Sequence record: PV660463
Direction: 5' to 3' (one strand)
Length of the DNA stretch: 64,000 nucleotides
Origin: Escherichia phage LF82-41
The position numbers and the translations under genes are program-made. The notes beneath the pieces were generated by a model, which was not told the DNA's origin, did not search any database, and worked only from the letters and a program-made list of their open reading frames with translations. Each line of letters begins with the position of its first letter. Within the stretch, counting starts at the first letter, position 1. This document shows positions 48,171-50,286 of this stretch, in pieces.

Positions 48171-48797
48171 TTACTTACGAGTTTTTGCATACTGAGCAGC
48201 GTCAGCAGCCAAACGACCTGCCTGACGAAGTTTTTCTTTAATCGCATCGTGAAGTGGTTGAGTATACTTCAAACCTTCGATAGTCAAATAAAGACGATAA
48301 AGGTCTGGGGTATCAAGGTTGTTGATATGTTGGCCATTACGAAGACTGTTGAATTCACGAACGAGTGAAGATGTATCAGATTCAATATCACGAACAAGCG
48401 AAGATAGTTGTTTATATTTTTTTTCCAGGCTAGAAGTATCAAACTTAAGAGCAGGAGCTTTAGGAGTTGCTTTTACTTCCGGCTTAGGCTCAGGTTTTGC
48501 TATTGCTTTAGGGGTCGCAGGTTTAGGAACGGTAGGAGCAGGTTTTACTTTAGGCGAGCCCGATTTAGCAGAAACACCACCACTAACAATATCTTTGAAT
48601 GCTTTAGAAGCTCTGTAATATTCTTTTTGGCTGGAAGTGTCGATACCGTACATGGCTTGAACGTTTTTGAAAAACTCTGTACTAGTTTTTGTACCAGAAA
48701 TAGCATCGTAAGCAGCTTGCCATTTCTCTTTTGTCATACGTACACCGGCTTCGGTGATTACTTCCGTTTCGGCTAAAAATTCATTAAAAGTATACAT
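48171..48797 (-). CDS. internal-protein-like with leader MYTFNEFLAETE and Lys/Pro/Ala-rich low-complexity linker
   Basis: 208 aa; N-terminal leader resembles capsid-targeting sequence; PKVKPAPTVPKPATPKAIAKPEPKPEVKATPKAP repeat region. Confidence 0.6.
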   Translation of the reverse strand: MYTFNEFLAETEVITEAGVRMTKEKWQAAYDAISGTKTSTEFFKNVQAMYGIDTSSQKEYYRASKAFKDIVSGGVSAKSGSPKVKPAPTVPKPATPKAIAKPEPKPEVKATPKAPALKFDTSSLEKKYKQLSSLVRDIESDTSSLVREFNSLRNGQHINNLDTPDLYRLYLTIEGLKYTQPLHDAIKEKLRQAGRLAADAAQYAKTRK

Positions 48798-48841
48798 TGA
48801 TGGTCCTTAGAAAGTAGGTTTATTGTTTACTATATTTATAC

Positions 48842-48871
48842 AAAAAAAGCCCCAACCTTTCGGAAGGGGCT
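48842..48871 (-). terminator. intrinsic terminator (hairpin + U-run on minus strand), repeat of 33493..33520
   Basis: A7 run then agccccaacctttcggaaggggct on plus strand. Confidence 0.55.
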
Positions 48872-48904
48872 ATATACCTTGTCGGGGTTTCCACCTACTA
48901 GGTA

Positions 48905-49000
48905 AGTGTTTGTACGAAACGCCGGGATTCGAACCCGGTTATTAAGCAGTTGACGCTACTCAATATTTTTAAAAGGCCGTATCTCTACCATATCCGAACG
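48905..49000 (-). other. tRNA-like remnant / possible small stable RNA (canonical T-arm, no clean cloverleaf)
   Basis: minus strand ccgggTTCGAATcccgg T-arm at 48921..48939 with 3' acceptor-like strand; anticodon/D arms could not be folded by eye. Confidence 0.3.
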
Positions 49001-49173
49001 TCCCGTCAAAAACGCTACTCGGCTTACGGCAAAGATATTTCCTCGAATCGATAATTCTGTGCGCCGTTTCTGCTGTGATGTAAGGGGATATTAACAAATC
49101 ATAAAGATTTATTAAGACCAATCCTTACTCAGGGAACATCAGTCCGACGTCTTGCCGGTAGCGACCCGGCTTC

Positions 49174-49518
49174 TTATTTTGGCATATCATCAATTTGCTC
49201 TCGACGCCGACGCCATAGATTAATCGCTTCATAGGCACATTCTGCGTTTGGTATATGACGGCAATAATATAATGATTCGCGTTTCTGGAACCGATGTTGT
49301 AATGGAATTTCGTTTAAAAGGTCTTTACGGTCAAAGTATTCAAAACTAGTTAACCCAGAACGGTTTTTAATGAACTTCCAATGATCAAATTCATTTTGAG
49401 CATAGATGTAATCGGCATGCTGATACAGCGAATTAATCAATCGATGAGAAATAACTGTATCATATTCGTTAAAATAAAACGTTAAATCATGAACTACCAG
49501 ATAAATATTGCCTTTCAT
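49174..49518 (-). CDS. hypothetical protein (114 aa from internal Met)
   Basis: ORF 49174..49566 overlaps tRNA-Arg; start moved to MKGNIYLVV at 49518. Confidence 0.5.
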   Translation of the reverse strand: MKGNIYLVVHDLTFYFNEYDTVISHRLINSLYQHADYIYAQNEFDHWKFIKNRSGLTSFEYFDRKDLLNEIPLQHRFQKRESLYYCRHIPNAECAYEAINLWRRRREQIDDMPK

Positions 49519-49536
49519 ATTTTCCTCACTTGAAGT

Positions 49537-49613
<77 letters not shown>

Positions 49614-49616
49614 AAT

Positions 49617-49691
49617 TGGTGACCCTGGCTGGTTTCGATCCAGCTACCTATCAGTTATGAGCTGACAGCTCTCCCATTGAGCTACAGGGCC
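49617..49691 (-). tRNA. tRNA-Met or tRNA-Ile2 (anticodon CAT), CCA encoded
   Basis: Manual cloverleaf: acceptor ggccctg/cagggtc, D-stem gctc/gagc, anticodon loop ctCATaa, T-arm gctgg-atcgaaa-ccagc. Confidence 0.8.
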
Positions 49692-49770
49692 TTAATAACT
49701 TTCTATTATGAAAGGCACTTTAGAGCACCTTTGGTAATAGAGGGTATGAATTAATAATAACACATAATTC

Positions 49771-50286
49771 TTAAAGCAAATCAATCATTTTAACAGTTGG
49801 CAAAACAATTTCTTCTTCAATATAAGCAAATTCGACACGTTCAACTACACGCAAGAAATCGTAATCATAGTATTCAGAAGCATAGCCAAGAATATCAATA
49901 AGTCCTTGAGATATCTCATCGCCTTTCACAAAGAACAGGTCGAATACGCGGGCTTCGTCTTCTTCAGATTTATCACCAAGGTCTACTTCGATGCCAAAGA
50001 CCTTTTTAATAAATTCTGGTCGGAGTTGGTCTGAGAACAGCCCTTCAACCAGATATTCGTAGATAATAAGCGAGCAGTCACTGAATGGTGTATTACCACA
50101 GTAACGTTCAGCTTTAGTGCTGGAATGACGACTCTTAAATTTCTTCAAGAGATATTTAAACTGTTGGAGCTCATGCTCTTCCACTTCAAACAATGTTTTG
50201 GTTTTATAGTTGTCCCCGTCATTTTCATAGGTAGTGACATCAATTACATAACCCTTAGGAATTGTACTGCCTAAACAAATATTCAT
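49771..50286 (-). CDS. hypothetical acidic protein (171 aa)
   Basis: ORF. Confidence 0.6.
   Translation of the reverse strand: MNICLGSTIPKGYVIDVTTYENDGDNYKTKTLFEVEEHELQQFKYLLKKFKSRHSSTKAERYCGNTPFSDCSLIIYEYLVEGLFSDQLRPEFIKKVFGIEVDLGDKSEEDEARVFDLFFVKGDEISQGLIDILGYASEYYDYDFLRVVERVEFAYIEEEIVLPTVKMIDLL

What the first reader, a model, noticed from the sequence alone, without database searches (positions are those of the whole stretch)
48880..49170. About 290-bp ORF-free region next to the tRNAs containing a tRNA-like T-arm
A perfect T-stem-loop (ccgggTTCGAATcccgg) with an acceptor-like 3' strand lies at 48911..48939 but I could not fold a canonical anticodon or D arm. T4 encodes small stable RNAs (species 1 and 2) beside its tRNA cluster. 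This region may encode an analogous ncRNA or a decayed tRNA.
Basis: seen in the sequence. Interest (0 to 1): 0.4.

Follow-up and report, generated by a model that had tools for sequence, protein, structure and literature searches.

The report
T4 stable RNAs C and D
This gap next to the tRNA genes of a T4-like phage holds that phage's copies of two small stable RNAs, RNA D and the partly tRNA-shaped RNA C, which were described in T4 in the 1970s and whose function is still unknown.

Summary
A perfect T arm (CCGGGTTCGAATCCCGG, minus strand 48938..48922) is followed directly by an acceptor-like strand, and neither ARAGORN nor Rfam calls a tRNA there. The region is not new. The 376-bp intergenic stretch 48798-49173 aligns end to end with the annotated T4 genes rnaD (species 2 RNA) and rnaC (species 1 RNA). 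The window's copies are 85% and 97% identical to T4's, and they lie at the same place: the distal end of the tRNA operon, before the terminator. The T arm belongs to RNA C. A covariance model built here finds one RNA C copy per phage in at least eight Tevenvirinae genera. Compensatory changes support a four-way fold: a 7-bp acceptor stem with an invariant tandem U·U, a long arm I, a 10-bp arm II and the T arm. That rules out a decaying tRNA. Two hexaloops, UUGACG and CGUCAA, are invariant and exactly complementary, which suggests a kissing-loop lock. Function is still unknown in the literature searched. My best guess is a tRNA-top-half mimic that is processed and stabilised like a tRNA and acts on a host factor. 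Verdict: already known, modest interest.

The parts
49754..49781 (-). T4 middle-promoter-like site upstream of the tRNA operon: MotA box ATTTGCTTTA, a 12-nt spacer, then TATTAT
   Evidence: Pattern scan. The position agrees with the T4 middle promoter just upstream of the tRNA cluster described in PMC2330249. Inferred, not tested.
49617..49691 (-). tRNA with anticodon CAT. It sits in the same position and has the same anticodon as the T4 and RB32 tRNA-Ile(CAU).
   Evidence: ARAGORN; Rfam RF00005 at 59.4 bits; RB32 annotation note
49537..49613 (-). tRNA-Arg (TCT)
   Evidence: ARAGORN; Rfam RF00005 at 71.1 bits
49174..49521 (-). 115-aa ORF of unknown function (phrog_3355) lying between tRNA-Arg and rnaD. 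It is absent from T4. Its TAA stop (49176..49174) overlaps the 5' end of the rnaD homology.
   Evidence: An ORF of similar size sits in the same position in BW-1 and in RB69, ORF150c; homology to those two was not tested.
49058..49177 (-). Orthologue of T4 rnaD (RNA D, species 2 RNA). It has a 5' hairpin H1, GCCGG-GUCGCUA-CCGGC (49170..49154), then a long bent hairpin with a variable tip, then the tail CACA.
   Evidence: 102 identical positions with T4 rnaD (120 nt here, 119 in T4), 85%. MFE -38.1 kcal/mol, z -3.28. Covariation at the H1 closing pair and in the stems.
49051..49057 (-). A/U-rich spacer GAAUUAU between RNA D and RNA C (T4: AAAUUAU), presumed to be an endonucleolytic processing site
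   Evidence: Alignments. The nuclease assignment rests on memory only and is untested.
48913..49051 (-). Orthologue of T4 rnaC (RNA C, species 1 RNA), with limits transferred from the T4 annotation. The structural core is 49050..48915 and the invariant tail UACAA runs to 48910.
   Evidence: 135 of 139 positions identical to T4. Model R1 scores 165 bits, E about 1e-34. MFE -49.9 kcal/mol, z -3.88.
49044..49050 (-). RNA C acceptor stem, 5' strand CGAUUCG
   Evidence: It pairs with 48921..48915. Pair 3 switches between A-U and G-C (14 versus 13 sequences). The two U·U mismatches are invariant.
48974..49043 (-). RNA C arm I: a 3-bp base AGG/CCU, a long interrupted hairpin, and the invariant apical hexaloop UUGACG at 49009..49004
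   Evidence: 19 of 22 stem pairs above the invariant 3-bp base show changes on both sides. The stem is completely rewritten in KMB17, Melville, PEi20 and NM4.3 while the loop is kept.
48940..48965 (-). RNA C arm II: a 10-bp hairpin with the invariant hexaloop CGUCAA at 48955..48950, the exact reverse complement of the arm I loop
   Evidence: 8 of 10 pairs show changes on both sides. Such complementary loops appear in 3 of 1000 shuffles.
48922..48938 (-). RNA C T arm CCGGG-UUCGAAU-CCCGG.
   Evidence: The middle stem pair takes G-C, U-A, A-U and U-G. The T-loop sequence is not conserved in the Kc304 and CIP9 groups.
48915..48921 (-). RNA C acceptor stem, 3' strand CGUUUCG
48877..48908 (-). Conserved 3' trailer: hairpin CACUUAC-CUA-GUAGGUG (48908..48892), then GAAACCCCGACAAGG
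   Evidence: Alignment. The hairpin keeps pairing through an A-U to G-C change relative to T4. It is also present in AnYang, which lacks rnaC.
48842..48871 (-). Intrinsic-terminator-like hairpin AGCCCCUUCC-GAAA-GGUUGGGGC plus U7, the end of the tRNA/RNA D/RNA C transcription unit
   Evidence: Read from the sequence and homologous to the T4 sequence after rnaC. PMC2330249 states that T4 transcription terminates after the species I gene. The consensus scan did not flag it, because the stem holds a U·U interruption.
48833..48840 (-). T4 late-promoter consensus TATAAATA, serving the downstream ORF 48171-48797

Best explanation
The region encodes this phage's orthologues of the T4 small stable RNAs RNA D (species 2, window 49177..49058) and RNA C (species 1, 49051..48913), both on the minus strand. 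They form the distal end of one transcription unit: middle promoter, tRNA(CAU), tRNA-Arg, a 115-aa ORF, RNA D, RNA C, a trailer hairpin, then the terminator. Its 5' and 3' ends form a 7-bp acceptor-like stem with an invariant tandem U·U mismatch, and this stem is contiguous with a 5-bp T stem, so the two make a tRNA-like top half. The D and anticodon arms of a tRNA are replaced by a roughly 70-nt arm I and a 10-bp arm II. How it works is inferred, not shown. (1) The tRNA-like minihelix and the A/U-rich spacer let host tRNA- and RNA-processing enzymes cut RNA C out of the polycistronic transcript and give it tRNA-like stability (about 0.5-0.6). (2) The invariant hexaloops UUGACG in arm I and CGUCAA in arm II pair with each other in a 6-bp kissing interaction. 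This either locks the body within one molecule or joins two molecules (about 0.4-0.5). (3) The mature RNAs act in trans on a host factor that recognises tRNA-like RNA, as a decoy or sponge. They would modulate fitness on particular hosts rather than being essential (about 0.3). The confidence figure below refers to the identity claim.
For: Identity. The region aligns end to end with T4 rnaD plus rnaC, which AF158101 annotates as misc_RNA. Identity to T4 is 97.1% for rnaC and 85% for rnaD. Other records carry the same annotation: RB3 AJ884578 'rnaC: species I RNA' and RB10. About 800 T4-like phage records match.

Structure. RNAalifold and the model-based alignment of 27 distinct sequences give 97.7% paired cells, against about 40% for slid controls. 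29 of 51 pairs show changes on both sides. Model R1 finds exactly one hit per phage.

Transcription unit. A MotA-box promoter-like site lies upstream and a terminator downstream. PMC2330249 describes a single primary transcript of about 1.75 kb that is the precursor of the tRNAs and of species I and II RNAs and that ends after species I. Both RNAs were classified as late RNAs by RNA-seq in T4, validated by a Northern blot made with an RNAC probe (PMC9697503).

Processing context. In every genus RNA C is preceded by a tRNA, RNA D or a hairpin, followed by an A/U-rich spacer of 6-7 nt.

Kissing loops. Both hexamers are invariant in 27 of 27 sequences while the stems holding them are rewritten. 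Complementary loops of this kind arise in 3 of 1000 shuffles.

Host-specific role. The convergent SNP reported in phage BW-1 evolved on E. coli ECOR34 (PMC12685909) maps to the rnaD tip hairpin. It turns a C·A mismatch into a C-G pair, restoring the sequence seen in natural relatives.
Against: No function is known. The reviews and omics papers found state that the roles of RNA C and RNA D are unknown (PMC3014915, PMC9697503). Nothing was measured in this phage: no expression data, no mapped ends. The kissing pairs never vary, so covariation neither supports nor refutes them. Arm I is much longer than arm II, so an intramolecular kiss would need sharp bends. The T-loop sequence is not conserved in two groups (UGCAUUC, UGCAUGC), so full tRNA mimicry, including TrmA and TruB recognition, cannot be the family-wide requirement. 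The T4 annotation starts rnaC one nucleotide upstream of the predicted acceptor stem and ends it two nucleotides after the stem. That does not match a simple RNase P plus CCA picture. The alignment used for the pair counts was fitted to the model, which inflates the percentage paired.
Confidence: 0.93

Rival explanations
1. Decayed tRNA: the T arm and acceptor strand are what remains of a tRNA gene that lost its D and anticodon arms and is drifting without function.
For: The acceptor and T-arm geometry is that of a tRNA, and the element sits in a tRNA cluster. In phage PG7, ARAGORN calls the 3' two-thirds of the homologue a 95-nt 'tRNA-Met'. It uses an alternative acceptor stem, ACGGAAC/GUUCCGU, with arm II as a long variable arm. 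A tRNA ancestry is therefore plausible.
Against: The non-tRNA arms are under structural selection. 27 of the 32 variable-stem pairs in arm I and arm II show compensatory changes across at least eight genera, and two loops, the tandem U·U and the 3' tail are invariant. The T4 RNA is an abundant stable species (PMC9697503). The alternative tRNA-like acceptor stem is mismatched in EcS1, in the CIP9 group and in the divergent group. The Rfam tRNA model gives no hit at E<=10.
Confidence: 0.03
2. Cis-acting by-product: RNA D and RNA C have no function of their own. They are structured 3' ends or spacers that protect the tRNA operon transcript from 3' exonucleases and organise its processing, and they accumulate only because they are stable.
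For: In T4-type phages they lie at the 3' end of the operon, just before the terminator. I know of no deletion phenotype, but that is from memory and was not checked here. RNA D and RNA C occur independently of each other: AnYang has only rnaD, and EcS1, Kc304 and KMB17 have only rnaC.
Against: In Karamvirus, Kagamiyamavirus, Winklervirus and Gelderlandvirus, RNA C sits in the middle of the tRNA cluster, between tRNA-Trp (or tRNA-Phe, or tRNA-Ile) and the next tRNA, so it protects no 3' end there. A mere protective hairpin would not need invariant hexaloops, an invariant tandem U·U or a four-way fold kept through complete stem turnover. The adaptive SNP in BW-1 repairs a base pair in RNA D.
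Confidence: 0.15
3. An aminoacylatable or tmRNA-like RNA: RNA C is charged at its 3' end and enters the ribosome or another aminoacyl-transfer pathway.
For: Like the tRNA-like domain of tmRNA, it has an acceptor/T-arm top half without an anticodon arm.
Against: ARAGORN finds no tmRNA. There is no G3·U70 pair; pair 3 is A-U or G-C. No CCA is encoded, and the invariant tail is UACAA. There is no conserved reading frame, and the tandem U·U lies in the acceptor stem. Rfam finds no match in the tmRNA clan.
Confidence: 0.04
4. A small protein gene: the region encodes a short peptide, for example the 50-aa TTG ORF at 48969-49121, as several GenBank records imply by placing 'hypothetical protein' features here.
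For: Mechanical ORFs of 34-50 aa exist. Records such as FL31, ESh26, PEi20 and NM4.3 annotate hypothetical proteins over the homologous stretch.
Against: The ORFs use TTG or GTG starts and span the RNA D/RNA C boundary. The substitution pattern is one of paired compensatory changes in stems, not of codon-position drift. The element is rewritten in arm I without keeping any frame. T4 biochemistry identifies RNAs here.
Confidence: 0.01

Closest known systems
Bacteriophage T4 rnaC (RNA C, species 1 / species I RNA; AF158101 70908-71046)
   Same: 135 of 139 positions are identical. It has the same strand and the same position after rnaD and before the trailer hairpin and terminator, and the same predicted fold.
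   Different: There are four substitutions. Two sit in stems and keep pairing: one changes G-U to G-C and one changes U-A to U-G. In this phage the operon carries 2 tRNAs rather than 8, lacks segB, and has an extra ORF upstream of rnaD.
Bacteriophage T4 rnaD (RNA D, species 2 / species II RNA; AF158101 71053-71171)
   Same: The 5' module (H1 hairpin and the GUCGUCGGACUGAUG region) and the 3' module (CAUCACAGCAGAAACGGCGCAC) are conserved, and it lies in the same position.
   Different: Identity is 85%. The tip of the long hairpin is a different variant, the 3' tail is CACA rather than CACC, and U28 is replaced by A, which breaks one pair. Its 5' end abuts the stop codon of an ORF instead of tRNA-Arg.
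tRNA (Rfam RF00005)
   Same: A 7-bp acceptor stem is contiguous with a 5-bp T stem and a 7-nt UUCGAAU loop. The gene lies in a tRNA operon.
   Different: There is no D arm, no anticodon arm and no CCA. The acceptor stem carries a tandem U·U. The RNA is 139-141 nt long. Neither ARAGORN nor the Rfam model scores it.
tRNA-like domain of tmRNA, and the bacterial Y-RNA-like YrlA RNAs (tRNA-top-half mimics)
   Same: The concept is the same: an acceptor/T-arm module fused to a non-tRNA body. This is a functional analogy only.
   Different: There is no sequence or model match to either. RNA C has no tag reading frame, no pseudoknot series and no G3·U70. No Ro-binding-stem resemblance was looked for beyond Rfam; what I know of YrlA comes from memory.
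Kissing hairpin complexes with fully complementary loops (HIV TAR-TAR*, ColE1 RNA I/RNA II)
   Same: Two hairpin loops of 6 nt are perfectly Watson-Crick complementary.
   Different: Here both loops lie in one RNA. The interaction is predicted only, from invariance and complementarity, and has not been shown.

Membership tests
T4 rnaC (species 1 RNA) family | Sequence homology to the annotated T4 rnaC over its full length | tested here: met
   135 of 139 positions identical. Full-length hit to model R1 at 165 bits.
T4 rnaC (species 1 RNA) family | Location on the tRNA strand inside or at the distal end of the phage tRNA cluster | tested here: met
   It lies downstream of tRNA-Arg and rnaD and upstream of the terminator, as in T4.
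T4 rnaC (species 1 RNA) family | Conserved four-way fold (acceptor stem with tandem U·U, arm I, arm II, T arm) | tested here: met
   The window sequence forms every consensus pair in its own MFE structure, and the consensus is supported by covariation.
T4 rnaC (species 1 RNA) family | Accumulates as a discrete stable RNA of about 140 nt in infected cells | not testable with these tools
   Shown for T4 only (a Northern blot in PMC9697503). No expression data exist for this phage.
T4 rnaD (species 2 RNA) family | Sequence homology to the annotated T4 rnaD, and a position immediately upstream of rnaC | tested here: met
   85% identity, with the conserved 5' and 3' modules and a variable tip.
T4 rnaD (species 2 RNA) family | Accumulates as a discrete stable RNA of about 120 nt | not testable with these tools
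   T4 data only (PMC9697503)
tRNA (RF00005) | Cloverleaf with D arm and anticodon arm, scored by tRNA models | tested here: not met
   No ARAGORN call. No RF00005 hit in 48700-49800 other than the two real tRNAs, even at E<=10.
tRNA (RF00005) | Acceptor stem stacked on a T arm with a canonical T loop | tested here: met
   CGAUUCG/CGUUUCG lies next to CCGGG-UUCGAAU-CCCGG. The T loop is not canonical in the Kc304 and CIP9 groups.
tmRNA | tRNA-like domain with G3·U70, a tag reading frame and pseudoknots | tested here: not met
   ARAGORN finds no tmRNA. Pair 3 is A-U or G-C. No Rfam hit.
Any curated Rfam 15 family | Score at or above the gathering threshold | tested here: not met
   Only the two tRNAs pass. 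Hits below threshold in the region overlap the terminator and are chance-level.

The most novel reading that the evidence does not exclude
RNA C is not a relic. It is a distinct, strongly constrained RNA family with no match in Rfam 15, present in at least eight genera of Tevenvirinae. It combines a tRNA top half, marked by an invariant tandem U·U in the acceptor stem, with a body locked or dimerised by a 6-bp kiss between two invariant hexaloops. Together with RNA D it acts as a host-specific decoy or counter-defence RNA against a host factor that targets tRNA-like molecules. The base-pair-restoring adaptive SNP in BW-1 rnaD on ECOR34 would be the first genetic hint of such a role.
Probability: 0.2. 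Interest if true: 0.65.

Novelty: already known. Interest (0 to 1): 0.27.

Why it matters
As a finding in this window it is ordinary. These are the local copies of two RNAs sequenced from T4 in the 1970s and annotated in the T4 reference genome. It has some value because their function has stayed unknown for about fifty years and most phage records leave them unannotated, or lay spurious 'hypothetical protein' or 'tRNA-Met' features over them. The comparative work done here adds three things. It gives a covariation-supported secondary structure and a working covariance model for RNA C. It shows that RNA C and RNA D are separable modules with different distributions. It yields concrete, mutable targets for experiment: the complementary hexaloops, the tandem U·U, the UACAA tail and the RNA D tip hairpin. 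If the RNAs turn out to be decoys for host tRNA-directed factors, they would add to the known role of phage tRNA genes in countering host defence.

Tried and rejected
- **Rfam.** I searched at gathering score over the whole window and at E<=10 over 48700-49800. Only the two real tRNAs matched. The weak hits (NsiR1, mir-7, TarA and others) sit on the terminator and are chance-level.
- **ARAGORN.** No tRNA or tmRNA in the region.
- **Pattern scan of 185,579 bacterial and archaeal genomes** for the RNA C ends. All 15 hits were GC-rich coding sequence lacking the loop motifs, so they are chance matches.
- **The same scan on metagenomes.** 29 loci; the 11 that carry both loop motifs are all T4-like by sequence, and the other 18 are chance.
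- **blastn against 5,426 complete E. coli genomes.** No match, so the RNAs are not host-derived.
- **Protein families for the flanking ORFs.** There were no Pfam hits, and the PHROGs hits are to families of unknown function, so the context gives no functional clue.
- **Literature.** Searches for 'species 1 RNA', 'p2Sp1', rnaC, rnaD and RNAC found no functional study. The original papers of the 1970s and 1980s, and Miller et al. 2003, are not held. The 2026 SegB/Septu paper does not mention these RNAs.
- **Covariation in the kissing helix.** I looked for it in the most divergent homologues (Melville, NM4.3, Ursula, Kosakonia 305, PEi20). Both loops are invariant, so the test says nothing.
- **Alternative tRNA-like fold of the 3' two-thirds of RNA C.** This is the fold behind the ARAGORN call in PG7. 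I rejected it as the family structure because its acceptor stem is mismatched in most groups.
- **Model search of RB49 and KP15.** No hit in the 50-100 kb stretch of either genome. For KP15 that stretch may not include the tRNA cluster, so absence is not established.

Full report
**1. The observation**

Genes in this part of the window run on the minus strand. Read on that strand, 48938..48922 is CCGGG-UUCGAAU-CCCGG, a perfect 5-bp stem with a canonical 7-nt T loop. CGUUUCG follows it with no spacer at 48921..48915, exactly where the 3' acceptor strand of a tRNA would lie. ARAGORN finds only two tRNAs in the 64 kb: Arg-TCT at 49537-49613 and a CAT tRNA at 49617-49691. It finds no tmRNA. Rfam 15 finds the same two tRNAs at gathering score. 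A sensitive search of 48700-49800 at E<=10 adds only chance-level hits, and these sit on the terminator. The gap with no credible ORF is 48798-49173 (376 bp), somewhat larger than stated. A 115-aa ORF (49174-49521) separates it from the tRNAs.

**2. What it is**

blastn of the gap against 50,697 phage records hits 804 of them. Nearly all are T4-like coliphages and their relatives, and the best match is 98.7% identical (Escherichia phage FP43). The T4 reference record AF158101 annotates two misc_RNA genes directly downstream of tRNA-Arg: rnaD ('small, stable RNA; species 2 RNA', 71053-71171) and rnaC ('species 1 RNA', 70908-71046).

The window aligns with this T4 stretch column for column. Transferring the T4 limits gives rnaD = 49177..49058 (120 nt here against 119 in T4, 102 identical, 85%) and rnaC = 49051..48913 (135 of 139 identical, 97.1%).

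Downstream of rnaC lie a conserved trailer hairpin (48908..48892), the block GAAACCCCGACAAGG, and a terminator-like hairpin with a run of seven U (48871..48842). All of these are homologous to the T4 sequence. The trailer hairpin keeps its pairing through an A-U to G-C change.

A MotA-box middle-promoter-like site (ATTTGCTTTA, 12 nt, TATTAT) lies at 49781..49754, upstream of the tRNAs. A late-promoter consensus, TATAAATA (48840..48833), follows the terminator. This matches the published picture for T4: a middle promoter just upstream of the cluster and one primary transcript that is the precursor of the tRNAs and of species I and II RNAs and that ends after the species I gene (PMC2330249).

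**3. Anatomy of RNA C**

I collected homologues from three sources: the phage records, IMG/VR and metagenomes by pattern scans, and annotated records of other genera. RNAalifold on 14 sequences gives a four-way junction. A covariance model built from that alignment (R1) finds exactly one full-length hit per phage locus. The window scores 165 bits and the most divergent members score 91-116 bits.

RNA C is present in these groups:
- Tequatrovirus;
- Mosigvirus (RB69, where it is unannotated);
- Karamvirus (KMB17, PG7);
- Kagamiyamavirus (EcS1);
- Winklervirus (Kc304);
- Kanagawavirus (Kosakonia 305);
- Gelderlandvirus (Melville);
- Moonvirus (NM4.3);
- Edwardsiella phage PEi20 and Citrobacter phage Ursula.

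There was no hit in the Dhakavirus AnYang locus or in the 50-100 kb stretch of RB49.

On the alignment of 27 distinct sequences, 97.7% of cells are standard pairs, against about 40% when partners are slid by 1-3 columns. 29 of 51 pairs show changes on both sides. One caveat applies: the alignment was fitted to the model, which favours pairing.

The parts of RNA C are:
- **Acceptor stem.** CGAUUCG/CGUUUCG, five Watson-Crick pairs around an invariant tandem U·U. Pair 3 switches between A-U and G-C.
- **Arm I** (49043..48974). A 3-bp base, then a long interrupted hairpin whose stems are completely rewritten in KMB17, Melville, PEi20 and NM4.3.
- **Linker.** An A-rich single-stranded stretch.
- **Arm II** (48965..48940). 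10 bp, of which 8 covary.
- **T arm.** Its middle pair takes four forms.
- **3' tail.** An invariant UACAA.

The T-loop sequence itself is replaced by UGCAUUC or UGCAUGC in two groups. The stem matters family-wide, therefore, but a canonical T loop does not.

**4. Complementary hexaloops**

In every homologue the apical loop of arm I is UUGACG and the loop of arm II is CGUCAA. These are exact reverse complements. Both are invariant in 27 of 27 sequences, although the stems that close them change: GCGUUU/GAACGU, GUAG/CUGC and GCAU/AUGC for arm I, and UAG/CUG against UGA/UCG for arm II. Among 1000 shuffles of the window RNA, only 3 gave two MFE hairpin loops with 6 complementary bases.

I read this as a probable 6-bp kissing interaction, either within one molecule or between two. 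Because neither loop ever varies, covariation cannot test it. Arm I is much longer than arm II, so an intramolecular kiss needs bends at the internal loops.

Two related points remain open. The invariant 3' tail CGUACAA is the arm II loop plus one A, so it is also nearly complementary to UUGACG. In KMB17 the complementarity between the arm I tip and arm II extends to 15 nt.

**5. Anatomy of RNA D**

RNA D has a 5' hairpin, (A/G)CCGG-GUCGCUA-CCGG(U/C), whose closing pair covaries. After it comes a long bent hairpin with a conserved lower part (CGUCG/CGGCG, CUG/CAG, AUG/CAU). The form GAUG...CAUC becomes GAAG...UUUC in AnYang and one IMG/VR phage. The tip exists in at least four unrelated versions. 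The window RNA folds with z = -3.3.

RNA D and RNA C are separable modules. AnYang has RNA D joined directly to the trailer. The Karamvirus, Kagamiyamavirus, Winklervirus and Gelderlandvirus phages have RNA C alone, embedded between tRNAs.

**6. Function**

One recent paper reports a single convergent SNP in the rnaD region of phage BW-1 after evolution on E. coli ECOR34 (PMC12685909). I fetched BW-1 and mapped the position. On the RNA strand the change is A to G in CACAG-UUUUA-CU[A>G]UG. It converts a C·A mismatch into a C-G pair in the tip hairpin of RNA D and recreates the sequence found in natural relatives. That is my inference from their coordinates. It suggests selection on RNA D structure that depends on the host.

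My committed model has three steps:
1. The acceptor/T minihelix and the A/U-rich spacer make RNA C a substrate for host tRNA- and RNA-processing enzymes, which release and stabilise it.
2. The body is organised by the hexaloop kiss.
3. The mature RNAs act in trans on a host factor that recognises tRNA-like RNA, as a decoy or sponge, and matter only on some hosts.

Step 1 rests on structure and on my recollection of older work from the Abelson and Apirion laboratories on RNase P and RNase E cleavage of T4 tRNA-region precursors, which I could not retrieve. Steps 2 and 3 are inference.

One fact argues against a simple RNase P plus CCA picture. The T4 annotation starts rnaC one base before the predicted stem and ends it two bases after the stem, and no CCA is encoded.

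**7. Rivals**

- **Decaying tRNA.** Excluded by the covariation and the invariant non-tRNA features. A tRNA ancestry remains possible: in PG7, ARAGORN calls the 3' two-thirds of RNA C a 95-nt 'tRNA-Met', with arm II as a long variable arm. That alternative acceptor stem is mismatched in most groups.
- **Purely cis-acting 3' protective element.** Hard to reconcile with RNA C lying in the middle of tRNA clusters in four genera, and with the invariant loops.
- **tmRNA-like charging.** Unsupported: no G3·U70, no CCA, no tag frame.
- **Peptide gene.** Contradicted by the substitution pattern.
- **Host origin.** Not supported: 5,426 E. coli genomes gave no match, and all 15 pattern hits in bacterial genomes are chance.

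**8. Verdict**

Its main interpretation, RNAs like T4 species 1 and 2, is correct, and these are in fact the orthologues. The thing is already known and annotated in T4, so novelty is nil for the locus itself. Residual interest comes from the unsolved function, the lack of any Rfam match, widespread mis-annotation, and the testable structural features found here.

Noticed in passing
window 49174-49521 (-): A 115-aa ORF of unknown function (phrog_3355, no Pfam hit) lies between tRNA-Arg and rnaD. In T4, rnaD starts one nucleotide after tRNA-Arg. The ORF's TAA stop overlaps the start of the rnaD homology (AUAAGAA here, AUGAGAA in T4). An ORF of similar size occupies the same position in BW-1 and in RB69 (ORF150c); homology to those was not tested. 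In this phage the 5' end of RNA D must therefore be cut out of an mRNA 3' end rather than from a tRNA trailer.
   Followed up: partly
window 49537-49691 (-): The tRNA cluster here has only two tRNAs (CAT and Arg-TCT) and no segB homing-endonuclease gene. T4 has eight tRNAs plus segB. The layout matches RB69. The CAT tRNA that ARAGORN calls Met sits in the same position and has the same anticodon as the T4 and RB32 tRNA-Ile(CAU).
   Followed up: partly
L022:8491-8585 (Enterobacter phage PG7); GenBank KJ101592 / NC_023561: ARAGORN calls a 95-nt 'tRNA-Met (cat)' inside the RNA C homologue, and the PG7 records list a tRNA-Met under this stretch. The call uses an alternative acceptor stem, ACGGAAC/GUUCCGU, with arm II as a long variable arm. 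It is probably a mis-annotation, but it hints at descent from a class II tRNA.
   Followed up: partly
L068:672 (phage BW-1, record position 164264): The convergent adaptive SNP reported in PMC12685909 maps to the tip hairpin of RNA D. On the RNA strand it is A to G, and it restores a C-G pair (CACAG-UUUUA-CUGUG), the sequence seen in natural relatives L009 and L047. The paper did not describe it this way.
   Followed up: yes
L006:1493-1730 (Escherichia phage AnYang, Dhakavirus): This phage has RNA D joined directly to the conserved trailer hairpin and terminator. The whole RNA C module, from UUAUCG to GUACAA, is cleanly absent. The reverse case, RNA C without RNA D, holds in EcS1, Kc304, KMB17, Melville and others.
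   Followed up: partly
window 48877-48908 (-): A conserved trailer lies between RNA C and the terminator. It consists of a hairpin with a compensatory A-U/G-C change relative to T4, plus the invariant block GAACCCCGACAAGG. Its role is unknown; it could be a processing signal, a protective structure or a third small RNA.
   Followed up: no
window 48910-48916 and 48950-48955 (-): The invariant 3' tail CGUACAA differs from the invariant arm II loop CGUCAA by one inserted A. Both can therefore pair with the arm I loop UUGACG. This could mean alternative pairings before and after 3' trimming, or two copies of one recognition motif.
   Followed up: no
L005:1436-1576 (Enterobacter phage KMB17): The complementarity between the arm I tip and arm II extends to 15 contiguous nucleotides (AAAGUAGUUGACGCU / AGCGUCAACUACUUU). 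The MFE fold of this homologue forms that long-range helix instead of the two hairpins.
   Followed up: partly
window 49154-49170 (+): The promoter/terminator scan flags a plus-strand terminator-like site here. It is simply the reverse complement of the RNA D 5' hairpin H1, not a terminator for the plus strand.
   Followed up: yes
Records FL31, ESh26, ST2, PEi20, NM4.3, Ursula, Kosakonia 305 and others; RB69 L074:24157-24297: Most deposited genomes leave rnaC and rnaD unannotated, including RefSeq RB69. Others lay short 'hypothetical protein' CDS features across them.
   Followed up: partly
window 48833-48871 (-): The late-promoter consensus TATAAATA starts two bases after the terminator's U tract. 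The end of the tRNA/RNA D/RNA C unit and the late promoter of the next gene (ORF 48171-48797, phrog_2280) are packed back to back.
   Followed up: no
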